The notes under the pieces: model-generated
The model's database searches: none
What the model saw: only the letters and a program-made list of their open reading frames with translations
What the model was told of the DNA's origin: nothing
Position numbers and translations under genes: made by a program
Source: Escherichia coli
GTDB lineage: Bacteria; Pseudomonadota; Gammaproteobacteria; Enterobacterales; Enterobacteriaceae
Reading direction: 5' to 3' (one strand)
Assembly: GCF_017348835.2 (NCBI RefSeq)
Contig: NZ_CP072315.1
Length of the DNA: 64,000 bases
Shown here: positions 17,969 through 52,899 of the stretch, piece after piece
Layout of the letters: every line of letters starts with the position of its first letter
Numbering within the stretch: position 1 is the stretch's first letter

Positions 17969-18265
17969 ATGATCAATAATGATTACCCGTTAAACACGCT
18001 CAACCAGCTGCGTCCCTTGCTCATTGGTTTTCGCAAGGCGAATGGCCTGACGCAAAAAGACCTGTCCGAAAGGTTAGGCGTCACTCAACAGACATACTCA
18101 CGTCTGGAAGCCAACCCTGCCAGTGCGAGCATTGAACGGCTATTCAAGGTGTTTTCCATCCTGGGCGTAAAAATCAGCTTCTCCTCGGCAACCACCTCTT
18201 CAGAGAGGAAGCAGACGGAAGAAATGCTTAAATCAAACTCACCTGCACGACAGGAGGATTGGTAA
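17969..18265 (+). CDS. hipB: HipB-like HTH (XRE-family) antitoxin
   Basis: 98-aa ORF with HTH segment (LTQKDLSERLGVTQQTYSRLE) directly upstream of the hipA-like gene. Confidence 0.75.
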   Translation: MINNDYPLNTLNQLRPLLIGFRKANGLTQKDLSERLGVTQQTYSRLEANPASASIERLFKVFSILGVKISFSSATTSSERKQTEEMLKSNSPARQEDW

Positions 18266-18269
18266 CGAT

Positions 18270-19595
18270 ATGAGCCGGAAACAGCAACGTCTGGTAATTT
18301 GGATGAACGGCATCAAAGTCGGGTACTGGGAAAAAAGCAAAGGGGTAGACAGCTTAGAATACCTTCCTGAATGGGTTGCTGACGAACAGGGAAGGCCGCT
18401 GTCATTGTCCCTTCCTTTTACTCCCGGGAACCAGGTCTGGCGTGGAAATGTGGTACGTGACTATTTTGATAATTTACTGCCGGACAGCGAAGGCATACGC
18501 AGACGTCTGGCAATGCGTTACAAGGCCGATAGCCTGGAGCCTTTTGATCTGCTGACGGAGCTGGGAAAAGACTGCGTGGGCGCGATACAGCTGCTTCATG
18601 ACGGAGATGAACCCACTGATTTATATTCCGTGAAGTATCACCCGCTTACTGAATCAGAAATTGCGGCAACTTTGCGTAATACCACGGAGACATTGCTACC
18701 GGGCAGGCCAGAAGATAACGACGACTTACGTTTATCTATTGCCGGTGCTCAGGAGAAAACAGCCCTACTGTGGCATGAAGATCGGTGGTGTATGCCGGAG
18801 GGTAATACACCAACGACGCATATATTCAAGCTACCGCTCGGACTTGTGGGGAACATGAAAGCCGACATGAGCTCGTCGGTTGAAAATGAATGGCTCTGCT
18901 CGGTACTTCTCGGCCAGTACGGGCTCCCCGTGGCAAGAACGCAGATTGCTCACTTTGAAGATCAGAAAGCGCTGGTGGTAGAACGTTTTGACCGAAAATG
19001 GTCAGGAGACGGACAATGGATCATTCGTTTACCCCAGGAGGATATGTGTCAGGCCCTGGGCGTTTCGCCATTACGAAAATATCAGGCGGACGGCGGGCCA
19101 GGTATATCGGAAATTATGGAGGTTCTGAGTAATTCAGACCGTGCTGAGCGTGACAAAGCGCAGTTTTTTATGACGCAGATAATTTTCTGGATGATGGCCG
19201 CAACAGATGGCCACGCTAAAAATTTCAGTATTTCTATTGGGCCACAGGGACGTTATCACCTTACACCAAACTATGATGTGTTGTCGGCATGGCCGGTGAT
19301 CGGTCATGGGAACAATCAGATATCCTGGCAGAAGTGCAAACTGGCGATGGCCGTACGTGGCAGTAGCAACTATTACCAGATATATCGAATACAACGACGC
19401 CACTGGATCAGGCATGGTGAGATAACCGGCCTGAGTAAACAGCAGACAGAGGCGATGATAGAGGAAATCATCGCCAGAACCCCGGGTGTCATTGAACGTG
19501 TTAGCGGGCTTCTTCCGGACCAGTTCCCCCAGCAGCTTGCGGAAAGTATTTTTGATGGAATGAGGCAGCAATGCAGGCGCCTGGCTGAGAAATGA
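18270..19595 (+). CDS. hipA: HipA-like Ser/Thr kinase toxin
   Basis: 441-aa ORF, 4 nt after the hipB stop; N-terminal HipA-like coupling region and kinase-like core. Confidence 0.75.
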   Translation: MSRKQQRLVIWMNGIKVGYWEKSKGVDSLEYLPEWVADEQGRPLSLSLPFTPGNQVWRGNVVRDYFDNLLPDSEGIRRRLAMRYKADSLEPFDLLTELGKDCVGAIQLLHDGDEPTDLYSVKYHPLTESEIAATLRNTTETLLPGRPEDNDDLRLSIAGAQEKTALLWHEDRWCMPEGNTPTTHIFKLPLGLVGNMKADMSSSVENEWLCSVLLGQYGLPVARTQIAHFEDQKALVVERFDRKWSGDGQWIIRLPQEDMCQALGVSPLRKYQADGGPGISEIMEVLSNSDRAERDKAQFFMTQIIFWMMAATDGHAKNFSISIGPQGRYHLTPNYDVLSAWPVIGHGNNQISWQKCKLAMAVRGSSNYYQIYRIQRRHWIRHGEITGLSKQQTEAMIEEIIARTPGVIERVSGLLPDQFPQQLAESIFDGMRQQCRRLAEK

Positions 19596-21202: not shown

Positions 21203-21485
21203 AGGGTGACAGCCAGGTTGTGCCTAAACCTGGCAGTAAAACCTGCATGCCACAAACCTTTAAATTCTGACTCAAGAGCCTGGCACAAGATAAAAGCGAA
21301 ATGAAAAGGTTAAAACCGGTGCACCAGACCTCTTAGGTTTAATACCTGAGCCAGTATACTGGCAGTCTCAGGTAAGTGGGTATCATACACTTCAGAAATA
21401 TCCACACCGAGATAACCGCAACAGTTAAAGGGTGATGCTGCCAACTTACTGATTTAGTGTATGATGGTGTTTTTGAGGTGCTCCA

Positions 21486-21761
21486 GTGGCTTCTGTTTCT
21501 ATCAGCTGTCCCTCCTGTTCAGCTACTGACGGGGTGGTGCGTAACGGCAAAAGCACCGCCGGACATCAGCGCTATCTCTGCTCTCACTGCCGTAAAACAT
21601 GGCAACTGCAGTTCACTTACACCGCTTCTCAACCCGGTACGCACCAGAAAATCATTGATATGGCCATGAATGGCGTTGGATGCCGGGCAACCGCCCGCAT
21701 TATGGGCGTTGGCCTCAACACGATTTTCCGCCATTTAAAAAACTCAGGCCGCAGTCGGTAA
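21486..21761 (+). CDS. insA: IS1 InsA
   Basis: 91-aa [40 protein letters not shown]... Confidence 0.9.
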
Positions 21762-22183
21762 CCTCGCGCATACAGCCGGGCAGTGACGTCATCGTCTGCG
21801 CGGAAATGGACGAACAGTGGGGATACGTCGGGGCTAAATCGCGCCAGCGCTGGCTGTTTTACGCGTATGACAGGCTCCGGAAGACGGTTGTTGCGCACGT
21901 ATTCGGTGAACGCACTATGGCGACGCTGGGGCGTCTTATGAGCCTGCTGTCACCCTTTGACGTGGTGATATGGATGACGGATGGCTGGCCGCTGTATGAA
22001 TCCCGCCTGAAGGGAAAGCTGCACGTAATCAGCAAGCGATATACGCAGCGAATTGAGCGGCATAACCTGAATCTGAGGCAGCACCTGGCACGGCTGGGAC
22101 GGAAGTCGCTGTCGTTCTCAAAATCGGTGGAGCTGCATGACAAAGTCATCGGGCATTATCTGAACATAAAACACTATCAATAA
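21680..22183 (+). CDS. insB: IS1 InsB (expressed as an InsAB' frameshift fusion)
   Basis: 167-aa ORF overlapping insA in the -1 frame. Confidence 0.85.
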
Positions 22184-22226
22184 GTTGGAGTCATTACCGG
22201 AGAATTGTATCATTAACAGTCTAGTT

Positions 22227-22892
22227 CTAACGACTACCACTTTTAAGTATGTATTGAGCCAGTTTTATATTCAGGCACACCATATTGCACTCTAGCTCTT
22301 TCATCATTCTTGAAGAACTCTTAATTAAGTATTCTTCAAGTGGGCCAGCATATGCCCCTGATGTCACGATCGTTAGTTGCGTAAGAGGATGAGTCAAACT
22401 CTCAATGCCCTTCAGGATGTCATTCTGGACAGCAGCAATATAAACAGGCGAAGCCGCAATCAAATATTCATCATTCGGGCTGGACTGCATTAACTGGCTT
22501 ATAGTTGCGCAACGGTTATGCTTACCTAGTGATTTTGTGATGGCTTTCCACCAGAGATCATGCCTGAATGGTACTTGATGAAATGTCGCCTCGTAAGAGG
22601 GCACCCGATCTCGACTATTTAAAAACCCCATCCCGGCAGAGATTATCCACAACTCCAGATTTCTGGTTGAGTTTAAAATTTCCTTTGCCGTAGACCAGTG
22701 ATTACCTGAATACAAGGACAATGCCGGTACCGCCTGATTACTTCTGGCGTCGTCTACAATGTTACTCCAGGCATATGCTGCGTCGTCCGGGGTTTGTTTT
22801 GGATCTATGTCCAATGTCGGCCAGACGTGGCCCTGATGATTCTTGCCCTTTGTACAGGAAGTGATTAAGTGTACTGAGCGTTCAGAGAACAT
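22227..22892 (-). CDS. Hypothetical protein
   Basis: 221-aa ORF, second gene of a two-gene minus-strand unit. Confidence 0.45.
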   Translation of the reverse strand: MFSERSVHLITSCTKGKNHQGHVWPTLDIDPKQTPDDAAYAWSNIVDDARSNQAVPALSLYSGNHWSTAKEILNSTRNLELWIISAGMGFLNSRDRVPSYEATFHQVPFRHDLWWKAITKSLGKHNRCATISQLMQSSPNDEYLIAASPVYIAAVQNDILKGIESLTHPLTQLTIVTSGAYAGPLEEYLIKSSSRMMKELECNMVCLNIKLAQYILKSGSR

Positions 22893-22949
22893 TATCTTCC
22901 TTACATACCCATAGAACAGCTTTCTAAGAACGGTGGGCTCGCCTGAAAA

Positions 22950-23330
22950 TTACAAATCAGCCCCTTTCACGGCATCATTTTGATTCTTCGCGTCTGCCCC
23001 CAGTAAGATGACCGGTTTTCTGCATGACAGTGTTATTCCTAACAAACGCAACACAAAACCACGCCAGCCAGAGCAAATTTTTTCATTTGCTGCGTAAAGC
23101 CTATTGTTTTCTCTTTTAAGCTTCGCCCACTCGTTACAGAGGGTAACATCATCAAGCGCTGTTATATGCTTCGCCTCACCTTCGACGATAACGGTATGGA
23201 TACCGTATGCTGTAAATCTCATACTATTTTCCAGAACCCAGTTGCGGTATTCGTCGAGTCCACCTTCGGAACCGGTAGCTCTGCGCCACATTTCAATTTG
23301 CTTGTGTGATGGGTCAAGTGTACTTGTCAT
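22950..23330 (-). CDS. Hypothetical protein
   Basis: 126-aa ORF, first gene of the unit, downstream of a palindrome-rich leader. Confidence 0.45.
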   Translation of the reverse strand: MTSTLDPSHKQIEMWRRATGSEGGLDEYRNWVLENSMRFTAYGIHTVIVEGEAKHITALDDVTLCNEWAKLKRENNRLYAANEKICSGWRGFVLRLLGITLSCRKPVILLGADAKNQNDAVKGADL

Positions 23331-23972
23331 TGAAGCCTCGTCTCAGCGATAACGCTTGAAATAGCCCGCTTTGGTCATCATGAAATTAGCCATCTGACTG
23401 GCGATTTGATTGTATCTTACTCATAGTGCCCTACCTATAGGTTAAAAAGGGGCATTTTCGCTTTATAGCGTGTTCAGCAGCATCAATCCTCCCAAGAAAG
23501 GCTGGCTTATTAAGCCGGTCCATCATTTTCTGTATATCTCTCATCAATTTTTATATCCGCCCTGGAGTGCACCGTTCAAGCACACCGATTAGGCAGATAG
23601 TCACTAGTTAACTCTTTACTAGTGACTAAATTCCATTGATATACGTGACAACGTCACGTCATGAAAGCTTATAAATGCCTATTTTTCATACAATGGGATT
23701 TAATTAGGAGTAAATCCCATAGGCTTACATAAGGATGACAATTAAAAGCGTTAAATATCAACCAGATAGAATGATTACCCCCAATTAATGGGCTCATCAC
23801 ATTATTTCACTGGCTGGGGTTATTGCTGGCATATCTGAAAGTGCTAATATGTTAGTCATTAGTAATTAGTAAAGCCTTTACTAAACGCGTTTCTACGTAA
23901 ATTCTATAGGTTTTATAGTGTCCTACCTTTGCTCAAATCAAAATGTTCTGACATACCAAAATGGAGTGTAAA

Positions 23973-24791
23973 ATGACTCAAAACCAGGGTTCTGAGCCAG
24001 TACCGGCGAGCCGGACAGGGCAGCTCATCAGCGCCCGGGATATGGCCATGCAGAAATTCGAAGAAGGGATGCGGTTAATCTCGGAAGCGTCGGAACTGTG
24101 CGGTCTCTCTCTCTTCACCAGCAGAATTATGCAGCCCAACGCATTTGGTCTTCCGTCGTCACTGGATCGCACCATCGAGGAGGGGCGTAAGGAAATTGAC
24201 CGTAAAACGTGGAAAAGGCTCTTTGAAGAAACAGGTATGGACCGGTACTGGAACCATAAGCAAAAAGAAGCCTTTAACGAATCCCTTCGTACGGATCCGC
24301 CCGTCGCTTCCCTGGAGATTGTTAAGGGAACATTACAGCATGCACTGGCTAACAGACGAGACACCCTTGCAGAAGGTTTCGTTGATGTTCTCAACAAGCT
24401 TGACCGAAGTTTCAAAAGCAATGCCAGGCAATATACAATGCCAAAAAAGCTTGTTCTTCGGGGGATTTTTCCTGGTGTGAACGTGCTGAGGTACAACGGT
24501 TTCTCGCAGGACAATCACTTTTGTTTACGCGACTTTGAGAATATTGTATGCATCTGTTCTGATACTCCAACACCTGCAACCGGCGGTGGGCTGAGTATGG
24601 TCGACAGGCTGACGGCCATGAGAAATACAGAATTCACAGGCGAGGTCAGTGATGAGAATGGCTGGCGGTGTCGCCTGTTTGAGAATGGAAACGTTCATAT
24701 TTGCATCGACAGTATCTCGCTTCTGAATGCTCTGAACGATCTTATCAGCATATATTTTGCAAACCAGCTTCCGGCCGCAGGAAAAAAATGA
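23973..24791 (+). CDS. Hypothetical protein
   Basis: ATG at 23973 has a GGAGTG ribosome-binding site (track ORF starts at 23961); stop overlaps the next gene's start (ATGA at 24788-24791). Confidence 0.5.
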   Translation: MTQNQGSEPVPASRTGQLISARDMAMQKFEEGMRLISEASELCGLSLFTSRIMQPNAFGLPSSLDRTIEEGRKEIDRKTWKRLFEETGMDRYWNHKQKEAFNESLRTDPPVASLEIVKGTLQHALANRRDTLAEGFVDVLNKLDRSFKSNARQYTMPKKLVLRGIFPGVNVLRYNGFSQDNHFCLRDFENIVCICSDTPTPATGGGLSMVDRLTAMRNTEFTGEVSDENGWRCRLFENGNVHICIDSISLLNALNDLISIYFANQLPAAGKK

Positions 24792-25993
24792 TGATTGAAA
24801 ATGATAAAGAAAAAAGCCTGAACGATGCTACCCCGCCAGAGGTGCAGAATGACATCCGCAGCGAATCCACTGAAAAATCAAAGGAAATGGGTCGTTCAAG
24901 GTACTCATCTATCGCGATGATCGATTACTTCAATGCAATCGAACGTCTGTGCAAAGAGAAAGAAATTAACCCGGAAAATATCGATCTGAGCTTCAAAGTT
25001 CACTGGCTCAGAAACGCTGTTGGCGGCTCGTTTGCAAGGTCACAGGAGATGTTCGCGGAGTACCAGAAGTATGTTAAAGAGGTTCCTGAAGAGGCCCGTT
25101 ACCTGGATATACCCGATGAGGTAAAGGTTGCACTCGGCGATATTATCTCGTACATCACCTGGCACTACCGTAGAAGCTATACCGCAATACAGAATGATAG
25201 TGTTAAAAAAGCTGAAGCACGTAGCATGCAGCTGGAGGAGGAGGTAACGCAGCTGTTACAGCGGCTTGAGCAAAGCGCTACCGATATGGATGAGCTGAAA
25301 CTTGAGAATCAGGCACTACAGGGTCGATTAGAGATCCGGGACAGTACCGTCAAGGAGTTAGAAACAAGGCTGAATGTTGCCGAAGCAGAACTCGAAACCT
25401 GCCATCACCAGTTAGATAGCACACGGCATGAATTGAGCCTCGCACAGCAGTCAAATGACTCACTCTCCCAGCAACTGGCTGAACGTAAAACAGAGATCGC
25501 TGGTCACCTTGAATATCAAAAAAAGCTGAACGAAGAGATCAACACGCAGCGTTCTGATAACGCCGGTCTTTCCAGACAATGCGACCAGTTAAGTCAGACT
25601 GTGTCAGATACAAAGGCAGAGAGGGACAGGTTTGAACAGGAATTGATTGCTGCACAGAACCTTTGTACTGAGCTGAAAAGTGCACTGTCCGGGAAAGAGG
25701 GTGACCTGGTGGCGGTGAATGCCGAGCTTACTGAACTCCATAAACTAAACGAGTCGCTGAGCGCCGACCTGAATAAAGTAACTTTGGTCAGCCAGGGCTA
25801 TGAAGCGGAAGTGGCTGAACAAAGCAATGAACTCAAAACGCTCCAGGCCAAAGTAATGAAGCTGGAAGCTACCCTGGAGGCGGAGAAAACAATCTCAGAA
25901 TCCCTAAAAGGCACCATTGATACATTAACTGGTGCAATGGCAGGGGGAGGTACTGGAAAGTCAAAACAGCCGCGTAGCAGAAAAACATCATGA
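24788..25993 (+). CDS. Coiled-coil protein (KfrA-like architecture suspected)
   Basis: About 401 aa from ATG 24788; about 150-aa N-terminal domain then a long heptad-rich Glu/Leu/Gln/Lys helical region. Confidence 0.5.
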   Translation: MMIENDKEKSLNDATPPEVQNDIRSESTEKSKEMGRSRYSSIAMIDYFNAIERLCKEKEINPENIDLSFKVHWLRNAVGGSFARSQEMFAEYQKYVKEVPEEARYLDIPDEVKVALGDIISYITWHYRRSYTAIQNDSVKKAEARSMQLEEEVTQLLQRLEQSATDMDELKLENQALQGRLEIRDSTVKELETRLNVAEAELETCHHQLDSTRHELSLAQQSNDSLSQQLAERKTEIAGHLEYQKKLNEEINTQRSDNAGLSRQCDQLSQTVSDTKAERDRFEQELIAAQNLCTELKSALSGKEGDLVAVNAELTELHKLNESLSADLNKVTLVSQGYEAEVAEQSNELKTLQAKVMKLEATLEAEKTISESLKGTIDTLTGAMAGGGTGKSKQPRSRKTS

Positions 25994-26272: not shown

Positions 26273-27592
26273 TTAAGCAGGTGTGTCAGTTGAAAGAGGT
26301 TTGCGTGATTCTGGAAAATGAGGCAGCACCATAGTTTCAGATGCTGTGGTCGCATCCCAGTGCCACCATCCATAAGGCCCATATTCACGGTTGTAATAAT
26401 CTTTTTTGAGTTGCTTTCGGGCCAGATAAGCAGGAGTGGCCATACCAAATACTTCCATCGGGAACGGCTTATCGCTTTTTGTGTCGAGCAGGTAGAAGTC
26501 AGGGAACACCTCACTAATACTCGCATCATAACGCATGGGCTTAACGTACTGCCGGTGCTCTGCATCCAGCTTTTCTGCAACAACCGCCTCATAGGAGGAG
26601 TCCAGAGGTATCCAGTTCTCGCTAACGTGCATCAGCACAATTTGATGAGCTCTTACAGAAGGGCCTCTGCCGGTTACCACAGCTGGTGACGTCAACGCAA
26701 AGACAACTATTTTCGCCCCGGATTTCCATGCTGCGTACTCCGATGAAAATCGTTTCTTTACGCTATCCCAATGGACTTCTGAATTGAAAAAAATCAGCGG
26801 TAGCCCCCCAAAATTCCGCAGGGGTAAAAATTTAAGTGGCTTCTCATGCTTTTCAGCATCGTAGCGAGGTAAAACTGACAGGAGCATGAGACGTTTATCA
26901 CTCATCGCCTGTGATGAAAGACGCTGAATTTGCGACTGAGCGACAGGTTGTTTCGGGTCAGGTACACCAATGAATAAATGGTCACCTATGCAGGCTCTGC
27001 CGGTACGAATTTGTTTAGCGGTTTCAAGCAGACGATACCGTACCAGTGAATCGTTACGTTTCCCTGCCATTTTCGGGTACCAGACATTCAGACCAGACTC
27101 TGTCCACAAAAGACTAAGCAAGCCCAGGAGGGTCATTGAGGCCTGACCTCCTTCTGGTCGCTGAACATGGGGCAGGGGAGGCACTTCTGATTTTTCAGGA
27201 GGATCTTTCTCTGTCATACCGATACCGAGCCTTACAGCCATATCACCTTCGGTTGTAATCCGGACCACACCACTCGCATATCCTTTCAGGCCGGTATGCC
27301 GGGCATCAAGGGAGAAGAATACACAGGAAGGATCATGCTCAATGCCCGTGTTAGCGGCTTTGACGAGAATAAAGGCATCACCGTTCGGTAAAGCACGAAC
27401 ATAAAGTCGCTTTTCTCCTTTTCCACGACATCCGCAGGTGATGACTGATTTTTGACCTGAGGTGTGGTGTGCCTTTTTAAGAGCCGACTGCCACCCTTTA
27501 GCAAACTCATCCTGCGTTTGAAAGTCAGGTGAATACCTTTTGACGTTTGGATCGTCGTCGTAAGCAATCATCACTGCGAATTTTTGGCTCAT
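26273..27592 (-). CDS. Hypothetical 439-aa protein with Cys/His-rich N-terminal region
   Basis: Long ORF co-oriented with and downstream of the C5-methyltransferase gene; CGCRGKG and HDPSC motifs; no recognised catalytic signature. Confidence 0.55.
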   Translation of the reverse strand: MSQKFAVMIAYDDDPNVKRYSPDFQTQDEFAKGWQSALKKAHHTSGQKSVITCGCRGKGEKRLYVRALPNGDAFILVKAANTGIEHDPSCVFFSLDARHTGLKGYASGVVRITTEGDMAVRLGIGMTEKDPPEKSEVPPLPHVQRPEGGQASMTLLGLLSLLWTESGLNVWYPKMAGKRNDSLVRYRLLETAKQIRTGRACIGDHLFIGVPDPKQPVAQSQIQRLSSQAMSDKRLMLLSVLPRYDAEKHEKPLKFLPLRNFGGLPLIFFNSEVHWDSVKKRFSSEYAAWKSGAKIVVFALTSPAVVTGRGPSVRAHQIVLMHVSENWIPLDSSYEAVVAEKLDAEHRQYVKPMRYDASISEVFPDFYLLDTKSDKPFPMEVFGMATPAYLARKQLKKDYYNREYGPYGWWHWDATTASETMVLPHFPESRKPLSTDTPA

Positions 27593-27616
27593 AGTAGTCT
27601 CCTAAACAGGAAGTTT

Positions 27617-27784
27617 AATATCCCAACCAGAGCAACACTTCCTGAGCGTCATACTGTTCCTTTACGCCCATGTCGCTAAAGAATTCTTCGAAATCTGTTT
27701 CGGGAACGCAATGCCTGGACAGTTCTTGTAATGCTCGTTCTTTAGATACCGTCTCACCTTCAGCTGATTCGAAATACGTCATGG
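27617..27784 (-). CDS. Hypothetical 55-aa acidic protein
   Basis: ATG at 27784; MTYFESAEGETVSKERALQELSRHCVPETDFEEFFSDMGVKEQYDAQEVLLWLGY; lies between the methyltransferase and the 439-aa gene; not in the ORF track (below 60 aa). Confidence 0.3.
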
Positions 27785-27842
27785 TTGACCTCTGACATTA
27801 TTACAACAATCTTAAGCATTTAAATTGATGAAGGAGCTCAGG

Positions 27843-29270
27843 TCAGCTGACTTCGTCGTAAAACTGCCGCAAGCGCTGGGAGGCTGCAAATTCAATTCGT
27901 GACTTCAGCAGTTTGGCGACGGCCGCAAAGACATCAACGACCACGGAGTTCCCAAACTGTCTGTAAGCCTGTGTATTGGACACAGGGATACGGAAAACAC
28001 TTTCCCCGGGTTTATCGAAGCCCATTAGCCTGCTGCATTCACGTGGCGTTAGCATGCGTGGCCGACGGTCCATGTTGTATGTGTTATGGAAATCAGTTTC
28101 TCCCAGTTCATGAGACCAGCCCCGATCAATAAGAATTTCAGATCCGTCTTTCATATAGCGGCTTGAGAGGGTTCTGGTGACACTATTAACATTGGAAGGA
28201 TCTACTAGTCCAAAACCAAAACCATTGCCTTTTGCCGCATGTTTCTTTGCATAGTTGTATAAGTACTCCCAGAGTTTAGGGGAGAGGATGTATTTACTAT
28301 CTACGCTCGGATCCAGTAAATCTGAGAGAGAAGGGCGCTTGTCCGGATAAAAGTCTTTAATGTCTCTCAGAGTAAAACCGTCTTTCAGACGTAGGTCGCG
28401 GCGAAAACCAATAAGGACGATACGTTCACGGTGCTGGGGTCGGAAATGACGGCCATCGATGACTTTAGGATCATCCGCGCCCGTGCTTTCGCTGTTTGCG
28501 ACGTCGTAGCCAAGCTCATCGAGCGTTTTCATGATGATGTTAAAGGTATTACCCTTATCGTGACTCTTCAGATTTTTTACGTTTTCCAGAACAAAAATTG
28601 CAGGTTGTTTTGCCCGGATGATCCTGGCCACATCAAAGAAGAGCGTACCCTGAGTGTCGCACTCGAAACCGTGTTTGCGACCCATAGAGTTCTTTTTACT
28701 GACACCGGCGATGCTGAATGGCTGGCATGGAAATCCCGCAAGAAGAACATCATGATCCGGGATAGAGGCATCGATAAATTTGTATGCCTCGTCATCAGTA
28801 ACCTCGGGCCGGTTGCTAAGAGTGATGTCACGGATGTCTGAATTGAAGCGGTGCTCGTTCTCATCGCAATACCAGTTCGCCCGGTAAGTACGGCTGGAAT
28901 AAGTATTCCATTCGCTCGTGAAAAGACATTTACCACCGATGGCATCAAATCCGCTTCGCAGTCCACCTATCCCTGCAAACAGATCGATAAAGCTAAAGTG
29001 CCTGTCCTCATAATCAGCAGGTCGTGAAGGTATTAAAGTCTGTAGATAGCGTCCATCTGCGATACTCAGCTCACAATGCTCAGGTATGCATGTAACCTGA
29101 CGTTTAAGGGATGCACGGGACCAATTACTGCCATTTTCATCATTTAATACCTGAGCCAGATATTTCAGGTCATAAATGGTCGAAGCTGTTAACAAAGTTT
29201 TGTGGATCAGAGATGGTGTTTTATCCACATCATTCAGGTCTGTCTCAAGATCATGAGTGTAACGTTTCAT
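27843..29270 (-). CDS. DNA (cytosine-5)-methyltransferase, Dcm-like
   Basis: C5-MTase motifs I ([10 protein letters not shown]), IV (GFPCQPFS), VI (ENV) and X (QFGNSV); likely ATG at 29270 (about 475 aa), alternative GTG at 29312. Confidence 0.85.
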
Positions 29271-29481
29271 CCAAACTCTCTCAGGAATAATATCTTTGAG
29301 ATAGATTAACACGCTTAATTTGGATTATTTTTTGGTTCAGGTTCTAAATTTATTGTGATTATTCTGCCTTTAAGTTGCAAAAAGATTGGTTTTAAGCCCG
29401 CCCATGAAATAATGACTTGTTAAAATACTGCCTGTAAATAGGCTTGTGGATACATGTCTGTACTCAACAAATCAAGGTGAA

Positions 29482-30000
29482 ATGATGTTTTTTTTAACAA
29501 AGTTACTTTTGCCCATCATGATTGTTGTATTCCCAGTGGCGTCCTGGGGGAACTCAACAACTTTTGAGGCAAAGGTGGTTAAGATTGTTGACGGTGACAC
29601 CATAACTGCGTTGGATGCTCAAAACACAACCATCAAAATACGGATGTATGGTATAGACGCTCCTGAATCTAAACAGGCTTTTGGCCAAAAAGCAAAACAG
29701 GCCTTAACCACAGCTATAGCAACTAAAATCGTTACCGTGATAGACCATGGTACGGATATCTATGGCCGTATGTTAGGTACCATCTGGTTAGATGGATATG
29801 ATATCAATGCCTCTATGGTGGACAGTGGATATGCGTGGGTTTATCGGTTCGAAGATAACGCCATTGTCCCTGGCTATATCAAATATGAATCCGCAGCACA
29901 AAAGGAGGCAAAAGGGTTATGGGCAGACACCAACCCTGTCCCACCATGGCAGTGGAGACAGGCAAACGAAAAGCCCAGAAAGGTGAAAGAGAAGAAATAA
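29482..30000 (+). CDS. Secreted thermonuclease (staphylococcal nuclease-like) protein
   Basis: ATG at 29482 after an AAGGTGA ribosome-binding site; N-terminal signal-like helix; SNase-like motifs (GDTIT, IRMYGIDAPE, DxYGR, GLW). Confidence 0.7.
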   Translation: MMFFLTKLLLPIMIVVFPVASWGNSTTFEAKVVKIVDGDTITALDAQNTTIKIRMYGIDAPESKQAFGQKAKQALTTAIATKIVTVIDHGTDIYGRMLGTIWLDGYDINASMVDSGYAWVYRFEDNAIVPGYIKYESAAQKEAKGLWADTNPVPPWQWRQANEKPRKVKEKK

Positions 30001-39079: not shown

Positions 39080-39899
39080 GGCACTGTTGCAAAGTTAGCG
39101 ATGAGGCAGCCTTTTGTCTTATTCAAAGGCCTTACATTTCAAAAACTCTGCTTACCAGGCGCATTTCGCCCAGGGGATCACCATAATAAAATGCTGAGGC
39201 CTGGCCTTTGCGTAGTGCACGCATCACCTCAATACCTTTGATGGTGGCGTAAGCCGTCTTCATGGATTTAAATCCCAGCGTGGCGTTGATTATCCGTTTC
39301 AGTTTGCCATGATCGCATTCAATCACGTTGTTCCGGTACTTAATCTGTCGGTGTTCAACGTCAGACGGGCACCGGCCTTCGCGTTTGAGCAGAGCAAGCG
39401 CGCGACCATAGGCGGGCGCTTTATCCGTGTTGATGAATCGTGGGATCTGCCACTTCTTCACGTTGTTGAGGATTTTACCCAGAAACCGGTATGCAGCTTT
39501 GCTGTTACGACGGGAGGAGAGATAAAAATCGACAGTGCGGCCCCGGCTGTCGACGGCCCGGTACAGATACGCCCAGCGGCCATTGACCTTCACGTAGGTT
39601 TCATCCATGTGCCACGGGCAAAGATCGGAAGGGTTACGCCAGTACCAGCGCAGCCGTTTTTCCATTTCAGGCGCATAACGCTGAACCCAGCGGTAAATCG
39701 TGGAGTGATCGACATTCACTCCGCGTTCAGCCAGCATCTCCTGCAGCTCACGGTAACTGATGCCGTATTTGCAGTACCAGCGTACGGCCCACAGAATGAT
39801 GTCACGCTGAAAATGCCGGCCTTTGAATGGGTTCATGTGCAGCTCCATCAGCAAAAGGGGATGATAAGTTTATCACCACCGACTATTTGCAACAGTGCC
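39080..39899 (-). mobile_element. IS26 copy 2 (820 bp)
   Basis: Both 14-bp ends present; abuts a 5'-truncated IS26 in the opposite orientation at 39900. Confidence 0.9.
39132..39836 (-). CDS. tnp26: IS26 transposase Tnp26 (Asn at position 184)
   Basis: 234 aa from [12 protein letters not shown]; contains KRIINATLG. Confidence 0.9.
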   Translation of the reverse strand: MNPFKGRHFQRDIILWAVRWYCKYGISYRELQEMLAERGVNVDHSTIYRWVQRYAPEMEKRLRWYWRNPSDLCPWHMDETYVKVNGRWAYLYRAVDSRGRTVDFYLSSRRNSKAAYRFLGKILNNVKKWQIPRFINTDKAPAYGRALALLKREGRCPSDVEHRQIKYRNNVIECDHGKLKRIINATLGFKSMKTAYATIKGIEVMRALRKGQASAFYYGDPLGEMRLVSRVFEM

Positions 39900-51582: not shown

Positions 51583-51778
51583 GCGCGACGAGCAGCAGCA
51601 CCAGGAGCAGAAGCACGTCGAGAAAAAGCAACAGCAGATCGAGCAGCGCCCACGGCGGGCCGCTCGCATCGGATAAGTCGAAAAATCCGGCTAAAGTGGC
51701 CGAGCTGCACATCAGGCCGCGCGGTTTTCCTCCCTGATCGCCGGCGCGGTTTCTTCCTCCCTGAACCGCATGCAGACT

Positions 51779-51812
51779 TGCCGCCTCGGACACCCCGAGG
51801 CGGTTTTTTTTC
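51779..51812 (+). terminator. Rho-independent terminator
   Basis: Hairpin CCGCCTCGG-ACACC-CCGAGGCGG followed by eight T residues. Confidence 0.7.
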
Positions 51813-51823
51813 GCCTCGCTCGA

Positions 51824-52037
51824 GCATCGCCGCATCCGACGATGCCGAGACGACCAGGCCGCGCACGTCGAGCTGCAGCATCGCCATTGCCGACGATGGC
51901 ACCAGGTCGCCGGCGGTGGCCACCGACCTCGAGCTCGCATCGCCACATCCGACGATGCGCGCCGGCGTCGACCATCGCCAGGTCTGACGATGGCGGCCGC
52001 CCTGCCCTGGATCTCGCATCGCCATTTCTGGCGATGA
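51824..52037 (+). repeat. Five iterated about 22-bp partly palindromic sites (GCATCG-N10-CGATGC type)
   Basis: Copies at 51824, 51877, 51937, 51972 and 52016, upstream of the serine recombinase gene. Confidence 0.7.
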
Positions 52038-52161
52038 GATCCACGGAGCGGCCATTTAGACCCGCCAATAACGACCCGGCCAAGATAAATCGCATGACGG
52101 CCTTTTTGGCCGGGGGTAGCATGACCGGACACTTTGCGTATGCCCAAAGGAGCCCGCAAGT

Positions 52162-52899
52162 ATGCGCAGGACGAAGCCAGTAGCCGCGCCGATGGTGGCG
52201 CGGGTCTATCTGCGCGTCAGCACCGACGCGCAGGACTTGGAACGCCAAGAGGCGATCACTACGGCCGCGAAGGCCGCCGGCTACTACGTCGCCGGCATCT
52301 ACCGTGAGAAGGCATCCGGCGCACGCGCCGACCGGCCTGAGCTGCTGCGCATGATCGGCGACCTACAGCCCGGCGAGGTGGTCATTGCCGAGAAGATCGA
52401 CCGCATCAGCCGCCTACCTTTGCCCGAGGCCGAGCGCCTGGTGGCCTCGATACAGGCCAAAGGCGCAAGCCTGGCCGTCCCTGGCGTGGTCGATCTATCC
52501 GACCTGGCGGCCGAGGCCCAGGGCGTCGCCAAGATCGTGCTGGAAGCCGTGCAGATCATGCTTTTTCGCCTGGCCTTGCAGATGGCCCGCGACGACTACG
52601 AGGACAGGCGCGAACGCCAGCGCCAAGGCATTGAGTTGGCCCGCCAGGCCGGGCGGTACAAGGGCCGCCGTGCTGATCCGAAGCGCCGCGCCCAAGTTGT
52701 CGCGCTGCGCAAGTCCGGCTACAGCATCAACAAGACCGCCGAGCTGGCCGGGTACAGTGCGGCCCAGGTGAAACGGATATGGGCCGAGGTCAGCCAGGCC
52801 GAAGCGAAGCAGCACGGCGCGTTCGTGGAGGACGCATTGACGGAAGCCGATGCCCTGGCCGCTGTCGGCCAGGATGAGCGCCAGGAGGAAAGGGCATGA
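52162..52899 (+). CDS. Serine recombinase (resolvase/invertase family)
   Basis: 245-aa ORF with N-terminal catalytic-domain character (YLRVSTDAQDLERQ) and a C-terminal HTH; alternative start near 52192. Confidence 0.7.
   Translation: MRRTKPVAAPMVARVYLRVSTDAQDLERQEAITTAAKAAGYYVAGIYREKASGARADRPELLRMIGDLQPGEVVIAEKIDRISRLPLPEAERLVASIQAKGASLAVPGVVDLSDLAAEAQGVAKIVLEAVQIMLFRLALQMARDDYEDRRERQRQGIELARQAGRYKGRRADPKRRAQVVALRKSGYSINKTAELAGYSAAQVKRIWAEVSQAEAKQHGAFVEDALTEADALAAVGQDERQEERA

What the first reader, a model, noticed from the sequence alone, without database searches (positions are those of the whole stretch)
22227..23960. Two-gene unit of unknown function behind a 630-bp palindrome-rich leader
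The 126-aa and 221-aa minus-strand genes have no recognisable motifs. The upstream region 23331-23960 contains perfect palindromes (AGTCACTAGT-N9-ACTAGTGACT near 23597; ACGTGAC-AAC-GTCACGT near 23645) and direct repeats of ATAGTG(C/T)CCTACCT near 23412 and 23911, suggesting tight repressor control of divergent promoters.
Basis: seen in the sequence. Interest (0 to 1): 0.4.

Follow-up and report, generated by a model that had tools for sequence, protein, structure and literature searches.

The report
IncHI plasmid operator region with DpdC-like gene
This is accessory backbone of an IncHI2 resistance plasmid: a conserved, palindrome-rich control region between two divergent gene sets, one carrying an uncharacterised DpdC-like DNA enzyme found on about 4% of sequenced plasmids; it is an incremental finding, not a new kind of system.

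Summary
The window is IncHI2 plasmid backbone. Both ORFs and both palindromes exist as described, but "no recognisable motifs" is wrong for the 221-aa gene. That gene is a DUF6884 / DpdC-like protein with a YaaA-type fold and both family motifs intact. It is shorter than DpdC, and no dpdA or dpdB is annotated on a 257-kb reference plasmid identical over window 12000-36000.

The 126-aa gene has an ~80-aa core from an unnamed family found on about 3,400 plasmids. IncHI1 lacks it here, so the "two-gene unit" is not conserved. IS1 cuts the gene string 28 bp after the 221-aa stop. Other IncHI2 plasmids continue with three small ORFs and hns.

The leader holds five perfect inverted repeats against 0.57 expected (P about 0.001). 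Four blocks are 70-91% identical to IncHI1, against about 40% for the rest of the leader and 65-73% for the flanking genes. Two blocks are arrays of 7-bp TAGTNA repeats converging on a 5-bp spacer, each next to a candidate -10 element. Such arrays occur nowhere else on the 257-kb plasmid.

The best reading is a dedicated operator region for divergent promoters, with the binding protein unidentified. The ATAGTG(C/T)CCTACCT direct repeats are not conserved and are probably chance.

The parts
22227..22892 (-). orf221: a short plasmid-type DUF6884 / DpdC-like protein with a YaaA-like fold. Motifs: C13-x3-K17 and I84-S-A-G-M-G89.
22950..23330 (-). orf126: an IncHI2-specific N-terminal extension (about 36 aa) joined to an ~80-aa core (residues ~37-105) of an unnamed small-protein family from plasmids and phages.
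23343..23393 (-). Mini-ORF MANFMMTKAGYFKRYR*, in frame with orf126 and separated from it only by a TGA stop.
   Evidence: Read from the sequence. Variant P0043 reads through this point (…FKRYRWDEAS…), giving a fused, longer protein.
23500..23520 (.). GC-rich hairpin GGCTGGCTT-ATT-AAGCCGGTC with T-runs, terminator-like on both strands, in the IncHI2-specific part of the leader.
   Evidence: Terminator scan. A Tn3 insertion in another plasmid abuts 23508.
23597..23629 (.). Block A: heptad array [ATAGTCA][CTAGTTA]-ACTCT-[TTACTAG][TGACTAA].
   Evidence: The IncHI1 version is [CTAGTTA][TTAGTAA]-AGTCG-[TGACTAA], followed after 3 bp by TATAAT. Identity to IncHI1 is 22-23 of 33.
23643..23659 (.). Block B: palindrome ACGTGAC-AAC-GTCACGT. 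The GTGAC/GTCAC arms are invariant and the 3-bp spacer varies.
   Evidence: Identity to IncHI1 is 14-15 of 17. It is unique on the 257-kb plasmid.
23693..23720 (.). Block C: palindrome ATGGGATTTA-ATTAGGAG-TAAATCCCAT. The arms are kept across IncHI1 and IncHI2, apart from the outermost arm base in L009; the 8-bp centre differs (ATTCGGGG in IncHI1).
   Evidence: Identity to IncHI1 is 30-31 of 34 over 23689-23722. It is unique on the 257-kb plasmid.
23842..23850 (+). Candidate extended -10 element TGCTAATAT for the rightward DUF4942 operon.
   Evidence: It is the only TGnTAnnnT match in the leader on either strand. TGCTAA and the final T are invariant in all five IncHI1 and IncHI2 sequences. This is an inference; no transcript data exist.
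23852..23884 (.). Block D: heptad array [TTAGTCA][TTAGTAA][TTAGTAA]-AGCCT-[TTACTAA], immediately downstream of the candidate -10.
   Evidence: Identity to IncHI1 is 26-28 of 33-34.
23423..23436 (+). Direct-repeat copy 1, ATAGTGCCCTACCT. Probably a chance match.
   Evidence: It is mutated in L009 (23432 T>A) and absent from IncHI1.
23915..23928 (+). Direct-repeat copy 2, ATAGTGTCCTACCT. Probably a chance match.
   Evidence: It carries two changes in L009 (23916, 23919) and is not alignable in IncHI1.
23973..24791 (+). Divergent DUF4942 gene, first gene of the rightward operon. A 401-aa coiled-coil protein follows at 24788-25993.
   Evidence: Pfam DUF4942 at 2.8e-26. RefSeq coordinates. The divergent arrangement is conserved in IncHI1.
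21431..22198 (+). IS1 element ending 28 bp downstream of the orf221 stop codon. It marks where the backbone gene string is broken.
   Evidence: The terminal inverted repeats were read from the sequence. InsA/InsB ORFs. Annotation as IS1B. Homology to the ST1 backbone starts at 22193.

Best explanation
The region is accessory backbone of an IncHI2 plasmid with two components.

**1. A divergent control region (about 23590-23930) shared with IncHI1 plasmids.**
- It holds two arrays of 7-bp TAGTNA repeats, blocks A and D. In each, the repeats converge on a 5-bp spacer.
- It also holds two classical palindromes, blocks B and C.
- Block D begins 2 bp after a conserved extended -10 (TGCTAATAT). It would therefore cover the start site of the rightward DUF4942 / coiled-coil operon.
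- In IncHI1, block A overlaps the -35 and spacer of a TATAAT promoter reading towards the DUF6884 gene.
- Inferred mechanism: a dedicated, cooperative, sequence-specific DNA-binding protein occupies A and D and shuts both promoters. B and C would be sites for the same or further factors. H-NS/Hha silencing of this 34-36% GC stretch may act on top.
- The binding protein is unidentified. orf126 is unlikely to be it, because IncHI1 keeps the arrays without orf126 at this locus.

**2. The leftward genes.**
- orf126 is a cargo gene inserted into the 5' region of the DUF6884 gene in the IncHI2 lineage. In the four plasmid contexts examined, its family sits beside hns, hha or proQ/finO-type genes.
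- orf221 is a short plasmid clade of DpdC-like DUF6884 proteins. It is predicted to bind DNA in a YaaA-like cleft and to use the conserved Cys/Lys pair on a flipped base.
- It must act without DpdA or DpdB. Its substrate and biological role (DNA modification, repair, or defence/anti-defence) are not established.

**Shown:** sequence identity, conservation, architecture, fold and distribution.
**Inferred:** the promoters, protein binding, repression and enzyme chemistry.
For: **Context.** The region matches IncHI2 plasmids: 1178 records, 823 of them at >=99%.

**Control region.**
- Inverted repeats are enriched at P about 0.001.
- Blocks are 70-91% identical to IncHI1, against about 40% outside the blocks. 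73% of block columns are invariant, against 23% outside. Flanking coding DNA is 65-73% identical.
- In blocks B and C the arms are nearly invariant while the spacers change.
- The heptad arrays occur only at A and D in the 64-kb window and on the whole 257-kb pAMSH1. They occur in every IncHI1 and IncHI2 locus that retains this intergenic region, and in none of the other plasmid loci fetched by then.
- The convergent design with a 5-bp spacer is kept in IncHI1 even though individual heptads differ.
- The TGCTAAnnT element is invariant next to block D. TATAAT lies next to block A in all four IncHI1 sequences.

**orf221.** Supported, plus the DUF6884 description in PMC11701544. DpdC biochemistry is from PMC10164549. 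tblastn finds the family on 3023 plasmids. No dpdA or dpdB appears in any annotated neighbourhood or on pAMSH1.

**orf126.** Supported.
Against: - There are no transcript or binding data, and no regulator was found.
- The consensus sigma-70 scan found no promoter in 22100-24100, against 4.6 expected in shuffles. My PWM hits are weak.
- The IncHI1 TATAAT next to block A is not kept in IncHI2 (CCTAAT), so the leftward IncHI2 promoter is unresolved.
- Block A is only 7 of 11 self-complementary in IncHI1.
- The A-D distance varies (262, 275, 285 and 287 bp between spacer centres, worked out by hand from the positions). It is not helically phased, so a looping model has no support.
- The heptad reading was made after seeing the sequence.
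- The Pfam DUF6884 score (30.4) only just clears the cutoff (30).
- This region is often disrupted in nature. Tn3, ISKpn26, IS1 and other breakpoints show it is dispensable.
Confidence: 0.55

Rival explanations
1. Generic xenogeneic silencing only. The leader is simply an AT-rich intergenic region bound by H-NS/Hha, which IncHI plasmids themselves encode. The palindromes would have no specific binding protein.
For: GC content is 34-36% over 23600-23900, against 45-55% in the flanks. hns lies in the same gene string in other IncHI2 and IncHI1 plasmids. hha is on the plasmid. The consensus promoter scan found nothing.
Against: H-NS binding does not need exact palindromes and would not explain the conservation pattern. 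The blocks are 70-91% identical while the equally AT-rich DNA between them is about 40% identical and has a hypervariable patch. The 7-bp register and 5-bp spacer are kept across IncHI1 and IncHI2. The window's own lineage has lost hns yet keeps the blocks intact.
Confidence: 0.15
2. Block C is the core site of a tyrosine recombinase, for example a plasmid multimer-resolution site of the lox/dif/rfs type. It has 10-12-bp inverted arms around an asymmetric 8-bp centre.
For: The 10-8-10 architecture (12-8-12 in L002) has nearly invariant arms and a diverged centre. There is exactly one copy per plasmid, as expected for a resolution site. DUF6884 genes in other plasmids lie near small phage-integrase-type resolvase genes. 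The leader is a rearrangement hot spot.
Against: The only tyrosine recombinase annotated on the backbone is about 30 kb away, at record position 157029-158204 against 188755 for block C. By my own reading the arms do not resemble XerC/D sites. The observed breakpoints (23508, 23512, 23532, 23580, 23926) are not at block C. A recombination site does not explain blocks A, B and D.
Confidence: 0.1
3. The palindromes are hairpins in an RNA, either a structured 5' UTR or a small RNA, and not DNA operators.
For: The 316-nt stretch folds far better than shuffles (z = -5.3 on the + strand, -4.3 on the - strand), with four local hairpins. Block D would lie in the DUF4942 5' UTR if the extended -10 is real. 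The loop of block C contains AGGAG.
Against: There is no Rfam match of any weight. None of 36 pairs shows a compensatory change. Helix A loses 6 of 11 pairs in IncHI1 without compensation. Hairpin D has a 1-nt loop as written. The folding z-score follows automatically from having DNA palindromes.
Confidence: 0.07
4. A single-strand DNA element of the conjugative leading region (an Frpo-type ssDNA promoter or ssi site) that fires on entry into the recipient.
For: Strong ssDNA folding. The neighbouring genes (DUF4942, DUF1173, methyltransferases, nuclease) resemble the cargo I recall being typical of leading regions. That resemblance comes from memory and was not tested.
Against: The fold is four short independent hairpins, not one long imperfect hairpin that rebuilds -35 and -10 elements. 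On pAMSH1, mobI and the relaxase gene mobH lie at 32-37 kb and this locus at 188 kb of 257 kb, about 100 kb away by the shorter arc. The flanking genes diverge instead of sharing one orientation.
Confidence: 0.03
5. Chance. The palindromes and repeats are accidents of AT-rich sequence, and the two ORFs are decaying hypothetical genes.
For: The direct repeats do look like chance. My rough estimate is about 0.09 such pairs expected per 630 bp. The start of orf126 is unstable, with an in-frame TGA and a fused variant. The locus is frequently disrupted.
Against: Shuffles give P about 0.001 for the palindromes. The blocks are conserved across plasmid groups whose proteins are only about 59-63% identical. 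orf221 has 23 invariant columns across 56 homologues and a confident fold. The orf126 core has 40 homologues at E <= 1e-10.
Confidence: 0.05

Closest known systems
DpdC of the Dpd 7-deazaguanine DNA modification-restriction system (Salmonella Montevideo; PMC10164549)
   Same: orf221 matches a PADLOC DpdC profile at 4e-59. It shares the DUF6884 domain assigned to DpdC. UniRef names some homologues 'TgtA5 cluster protein 2'; I read this as the old name for DpdC, from memory. DpdC acts on DNA independently of DpdA/B once preQ0 is present.
   Different: orf221 covers only profile positions 3-233 of 319, so the C-terminal part is missing. No dpdA, dpdB, dpdD-K or preQ0-synthesis genes lie nearby or are annotated on the plasmid. 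The usual substrate, preQ0-DNA, therefore has no evident source. The activity has not been tested.
DUF6884 (PF21818) / YaaA (DUF328, PDB 5caj) 'cantaloupe' fold DNA-binding proteins, including B. subtilis YfjM
   Different: orf221 belongs to a distinct clade of 213-245 aa, confined to plasmids of Enterobacterales and found on 3023 PLSDB records. Sequence identity to YaaA is only 13%. No member of this plasmid clade has been studied in the papers searched.
Heptad-repeat operators of ribbon-helix-helix repressors, such as omega of pSM19035 or ParR/ParG-type sites (comparison from general knowledge, not tested here)
   Same: Contiguous 7-bp repeats in direct and inverted orientation overlap promoter elements at two divergent promoters.
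The hns (sfh) neighbourhood of IncHI1 plasmid R27
   Same: The synteny is the same: DUF4942 and a coiled-coil gene, then the control region, then DUF6884, small ORF(s) and hns. Blocks A-D are shared.
   Different: IncHI2 has orf126 plus about 260 bp inserted between the control region and the DUF6884 gene. The small ORFs before hns are unrelated between the two groups. In this window IS1 has removed the hns end.

Membership tests
DUF6884 (Pfam PF21818) | Match to the family HMM above the gathering score | tested here: met
   30.4 bits against a cutoff of 30, E = 5e-7, residues 50-175. The margin is narrow, but precomputed PF21818 hits on most homologues support it.
DUF6884 (Pfam PF21818) | Conserved CxxxK and LSAxxG motifs (PMC11701544) | tested here: met
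   C13-T-K-G-K17 and I84-S85-A86-G87-M-G89. C13, K17, S85 and A86 are invariant, and G87 and G89 are >=90% conserved in 56 sequences.
DUF6884 (Pfam PF21818) | YaaA-like alpha/beta 'cantaloupe' fold | tested here: met
DpdC (Dpd system) | Sequence match to DpdC profiles | tested here: met
   Seven PADLOC DpdC models match, the best being PDLC02818 at 4.1e-59.
DpdC (Dpd system) | Full-length architecture, with the profile covered end to end | tested here: not met
   Only positions 3-233 of 319 are covered. The protein ends at residue 221, and the whole plasmid clade is 213-245 aa.
DpdC (Dpd system) | Encoded together with dpdA (a TGT-like transglycosylase) and dpdB | tested here: not met
   Neither gene appears in the annotation of the whole 257-kb pAMSH1 or in nine other neighbourhoods. 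Caveat: the PLSDB gene tables are incomplete, and I ran no TGT profile search over the plasmid.
DpdC (Dpd system) | [quoted passage not shown] | not testable with these tools
   This needs the in vitro assay of PMC10164549.
Repressor-operator control of divergent promoters | Repeated or palindromic sites conserved above background and overlapping promoter elements | tested here: met
   Block identity is 70-91% against about 40% outside. Block D abuts a conserved extended -10. In IncHI1, block A abuts TATAAT.
Repressor-operator control of divergent promoters | An identified cognate DNA-binding protein | tested here: inconclusive
   No HTH or RHH domain was found in orf126, orf221, the DUF4942 protein or the small downstream ORFs. 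The orf126 fold search gave only noise. The sites are unique on the plasmid, so no regulon points to a regulator.
Repressor-operator control of divergent promoters | Mapped transcription starts and regulated expression | not testable with these tools
   The one transcriptome-related R27 paper opened contains no data on this locus.
Tyrosine-recombinase core site (block C) | Inverted arms of 10-13 bp around an asymmetric 6-8-bp centre | tested here: met
   10-8-10 in the window and 12-8-12 in L002.
Tyrosine-recombinase core site (block C) | Cognate recombinase gene adjacent to the site | tested here: not met
   The nearest annotated backbone tyrosine recombinase is about 30 kb away.
Structured RNA (Rfam family or new) | Covariance-model match, or compensatory base changes | tested here: not met
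   The best Rfam hit is 22 bits against a gathering score of 52, and it lies inside the DUF4942 coding sequence. None of 36 pairs shows a change on both sides.
Frpo/ssi-type ssDNA element of a leading region | A long imperfect hairpin that rebuilds a promoter, located next to oriT | tested here: not met
   The fold is four separate short hairpins. The relaxase gene mobH and mobI are about 100 kb away.

The most novel reading that the evidence does not exclude
The short plasmid-borne DpdC-like proteins, found on 3023 PLSDB plasmids including IncHI1, IncHI2, pOXA-48-type IncL/M and Klebsiella IncFIB/HI1B plasmids, could be free-standing DNA base-editing enzymes. They would work without DpdA or DpdB, for example by converting or removing 7-deazaguanine or other modified or damaged bases in incoming phage or plasmid DNA. 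That would make them a widespread defence, anti-defence or DNA-hygiene function of resistance plasmids. In IncHI plasmids the gene would be held under a dedicated heptad-operator switch.
Probability: 0.12. Interest if true: 0.75.

Novelty: new variant of a known kind. Interest (0 to 1): 0.4.

Why it matters
IncHI2 plasmids are major carriers of antibiotic resistance genes. The plasmids matched here carry CTX-M, qnr, floR and tet genes, and much of the backbone is still annotated 'hypothetical'.

This work gives three testable handles:
- **A family assignment.** One hypothetical gene is a DpdC-like, YaaA-fold protein with an intact Cys/Lys motif. Homologues sit on about 4% of sequenced plasmids, and none has been studied.
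- **A defined set of cis elements.** Two heptad arrays and two palindromes are conserved between IncHI1 and IncHI2. They can be mutated or used as bait to find the regulator.
- **A structural difference between lineages.** The window's IncHI2 lineage has lost the plasmid hns end of this gene string to IS1. This may matter for the fitness cost of these plasmids, given the known 'stealth' role of R27 Sfh.

None of this overturns current understanding. The value is incremental unless the DpdC-like enzyme proves to have an independent DNA-editing role.

Tried and rejected
- **Rfam.** A permissive scan of 22100-24100 gave only sub-threshold noise.
- **Promoters.** The built-in promoter scan found nothing. 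My own PWM scan gave only weak hits.
- **Plasmid-wide regulon.** I assembled the whole 257-kb pAMSH1 and searched it for blocks B and C and for heptad clusters. The only other cluster of three TAGTNA sites, at record position 39274, does not resemble the arrays.
- **DNA looping between A and D.** The distances between spacer centres are 262, 275, 285 and 287 bp, worked out by hand. They are not multiples of a helical turn, so I dropped the idea.
- **Direct repeats as functional sites.** Rejected, because they are not conserved.
- **Small ORFs between DUF6884 and hns as a conserved regulator.** Rejected, because they are unrelated between IncHI1 and IncHI2 and have no DNA-binding domain hits.
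- **Tracing the arrays through intermediate DUF4942 relatives.** Not possible. Identities jump from 63% in IncHI1 to under 26% elsewhere.
- **PDB sequence search with the DUF6884 profile.** No hit.
- **AlphaFold-database fold search.** The library was unavailable.
- **Literature.** I found no expression data for this locus. Nothing on plasmid DUF6884 or DUF4942 turned up beyond the Pfam note.
Full report
**Where the window comes from.** The 1.8-kb finding matches 1178 plasmid records, 823 of them at >=99% identity. Nearly all are large conjugative IncHI2 plasmids of Escherichia, Salmonella and Enterobacter. Window positions 12000-36000 are 100% identical to pAMSH1 (NZ_CP030940.1, 257 kb), which I used as the annotated reference. 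The neighbourhood runs as follows: ter operon, hipBA, an HNH endonuclease gene, IS1, orf221, orf126, the leader, then a DUF4942 gene and a 401-aa coiled-coil gene. After those come a DUF1173 gene, a cytosine methyltransferase gene and a thermonuclease gene.

**Checking the observation.** Both minus-strand ORFs exist as described, and each has a plausible ribosome-binding site (GAGG and AAGGAAG, read). The leader holds five perfect inverted repeats with arms of at least 7 and loops of at most 12. Dinucleotide shuffles average 0.57, so P is about 0.001. Only one other 642-bp stretch of the window is richer. The direct repeats are present at 23423 and 23915, matching at 13 of 14 positions. RefSeq starts the DUF4942 gene at 23973, which makes the leader 642 bp.

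**The 221-aa gene is not motif-less.**
- It matches Pfam DUF6884 at 30.4 bits against a cutoff of 30. It matches a PADLOC DpdC model at 4e-59 over profile positions 3-233 of 319.
- Pfam's description of DUF6884 names two signature motifs, CxxxK and LSAxxG, and a YaaA-like 'cantaloupe' fold with a DNA-binding cleft. orf221 has C13-TKG-K17 and I84-SAGMG. These residues are invariant or nearly so in 56 homologues.
- DpdC is the enzyme that converts preQ0 in DNA to the amide ADG, and it acts independently of DpdA and DpdB.
- orf221 fails two defining features of DpdC. It lacks the C-terminal quarter of the profile. It also has no dpdA or dpdB nearby or annotated anywhere on pAMSH1, or in nine other contexts.
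- I therefore file it as a DUF6884 member and a DpdC-like variant, not as DpdC.
- The clade is 213-245 aa and plasmid-borne. tblastn finds it on 3023 of 72,556 plasmid records, including IncHI1, IncHI1B, IncL/M pOXA-48-type and Klebsiella IncFIB/HI1B plasmids.
- Its recurrent neighbours are an SNase-type nuclease gene, umuDC, hns and a small resolvase gene.

**The 126-aa gene.**
- A word-based search found only IncHI2 copies.
- An exhaustive HMMER search found 78 relatives. Most are proteins of about 80 aa that align from query residue 37-42.
- The family consensus is GINTVxIxGEVKHITELDxxTLCxEWxKLxxENxxLYxxNxxANxGWRGxxLRLxGVxLP. It has no Pfam or PHROG family.
- The core occurs on 3398 plasmids. 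In the four plasmid contexts examined it lies beside hns, an Hha-domain gene or a ProQ/FinO gene.
- The N-terminus is unstable. A 16-codon mini-ORF (23343-23393) is in frame and separated only by a TGA, and one variant reads through it.

**It is not a conserved two-gene unit.**
- In ST1-type IncHI2 plasmids the string continues orf126, orf221, orf151, orf101, orf97, hns.
- In the window, IS1 (21431-22198) ends 28 bp after the orf221 stop. Homology to that backbone begins only at 22193, and the hns segment is nowhere in the 64 kb. No H-NS-family gene is annotated on pAMSH1 at all.
- In IncHI1 (R27-type) plasmids the DUF6884 gene lies directly opposite the DUF4942 gene across 492 bp. There is no orf126, and the gene is followed by an unrelated small ORF and hns.
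- So orf126 and about 260 bp of leader (23331-23590) are an IncHI2-specific insertion into the upstream region of the DUF6884 gene.

**The leader.**
- Between the two IncHI2 lineages the leader differs at 54 of 642 positions. orf126 differs at 1 of 381 and orf221 at about 7 of 666. One patch is hypervariable, with 20 of 44 positions changed at 23772-23815.
- Aligned to three IncHI1 sequences, four blocks stand out:

| Block | Coordinates | Identity to IncHI1 |
|---|---|---|
| A | 23597-23629 | 22-23 of 33 |
| B | 23643-23659 | 14-15 of 17 |
| C | 23689-23722 | 30-31 of 34 |
| D | 23852-23884 | 26-28 of 33-34 |

- A 10-bp element at 23841-23850 is also conserved, at 7-9 of 10 positions.
- Outside these blocks identity is about 40%. 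The flanking coding DNA is 65-73% identical.
- In B and C the arms are nearly invariant while the central bases differ.
- A and D share one design: contiguous 7-bp TAGTNA units converging on a 5-bp spacer.
  - A in the window is [ATAGTCA][CTAGTTA]-ACTCT-[TTACTAG][TGACTAA].
  - D in the window is [TTAGTCA][TTAGTAA][TTAGTAA]-AGCCT-[TTACTAA].
  - A in IncHI1 is [CTAGTTA][TTAGTAA]-AGTCG-[TGACTAA].
- Clusters of at least 3 TAGTNA sites within 40 bp occur only at A and D in the window. On the whole 257-kb plasmid there is one unrelated triple elsewhere.
- Both clusters are found in every IncHI1 and IncHI2 locus that retains this intergenic region, and in none of the other plasmid loci fetched by then. 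Blocks B and C are also unique on the plasmid.

**Promoters (inferred).**
- TGCTAATAT at 23842-23850 is the only extended -10 match in the leader. Its TGCTAA and final T are invariant across all five sequences.
- Block D begins 2 bp downstream of it and would cover the transcription start of the DUF4942 operon. That leaves a 5' UTR of about 115 nt.
- In all four IncHI1 sequences a perfect TATAAT follows block A by 3 bp in the direction of the DUF6884 gene. Block A therefore overlaps the -35 and spacer of that promoter.
- That hexamer is CCTAAT in IncHI2. A TAGGTA-17-TACAAT candidate lies about 80 bp before orf126. The leftward IncHI2 promoter remains unresolved.
- The generic scan found no consensus promoter.

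**Rivals considered.**
- *RNA or ssDNA hairpins.* The stretch folds well (z = -5.3 and -4.3) but as four separate short hairpins. Rfam finds nothing. None of 36 pairs shows a compensatory change, and helix A degrades in IncHI1.
- *Leading-region ssDNA promoter.* The relaxase and mobI genes are about 100 kb away.
- *Recombinase core site.* Block C has the right look (10-8-10, or 12-8-12 in L002) and is single-copy. However, the nearest backbone tyrosine recombinase is about 30 kb away.
- *H-NS/Hha silencing.* This probably acts here, given 34-36% GC, but it does not explain block-wise conservation.
- *A-D looping.* Distances of 262 to 287 bp are not phased (derived).

**Dispensability.** The locus is a frequent target of insertions:
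- Tn3 at 23508.
- Breakpoints at 23512, 23532, 23580 and 23926 in many records.
- ISKpn26 in the 3' end of orf221 in ST1 plasmids.
- The IS1 event seen in the window itself.

**Verdict.** The main correction is the identity of orf221 and the lack of a conserved two-gene unit. The locus is a new variant of known kinds (a DpdA/B-independent short DpdC-like clade and a heptad-type operator region) and is of moderate interest.

Noticed in passing
window 21431-22198 and flanks; L009/L024; pAMSH1 (L022, L025-L029): IS1 replaces the downstream part of the gene string (three small ORFs plus the plasmid hns gene) that ST1-type IncHI2 plasmids carry. No H-NS-family gene is annotated anywhere on the 257-kb reference plasmid, which is identical to the window over 12000-36000, although hha is. 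This lineage may therefore lack the plasmid's 'stealth' H-NS.
   Followed up: partly
window 23500-23930: The leader is an insertion and rearrangement hot spot across plasmids: Tn3 abuts 23508, and other records break at 23512, 23532, 23580 and 23924-23926. In many ST1 plasmids ISKpn26 sits in the 3' end of the DUF6884 gene.
   Followed up: partly
window 23772-23815: This patch is hypervariable between the two IncHI2 lineages, with 20 of 44 positions differing. The genes on either side are 99-100% identical. That suggests local replacement or relaxed constraint between the conserved blocks.
   Followed up: no
window 23343-23393 (-): A 16-codon mini-ORF is in frame with orf126 and separated from it only by a TGA. 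A database variant (P0043) has TGG at that position and encodes a fused, longer protein.
   Followed up: partly
The same IncHI2 plasmid carries a second, 563-aa DUF4942 protein. Their function is unknown.
   Followed up: no
window 26273-30000: A DUF1173 gene lies next to a cytosine methyltransferase gene and a thermonuclease gene. DUF1173 is discussed in a paper on new PD-(D/E)XK nuclease homologues (PMC3045609), which I did not open. SNase-type nuclease genes recur beside DUF6884 genes on unrelated plasmids.
   Followed up: no
window 23986-24050 (-): A weak Hammerhead_HH9 covariance-model hit (22 bits against a gathering score of 52, E = 0.019) lies inside the DUF4942 coding sequence. It is almost certainly chance.
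   Followed up: no
window 51751-52392: This is the only 642-bp stretch of the window with more perfect inverted repeats (six, all GC-rich) than the leader. It lies in the resistance-gene part of the window.
   Followed up: no
window 17972-19595: A hipBA-type toxin-antitoxin pair (an HTH regulator plus a 441-aa HipA) lies just upstream of the HNH endonuclease gene and IS1.
   Followed up: no
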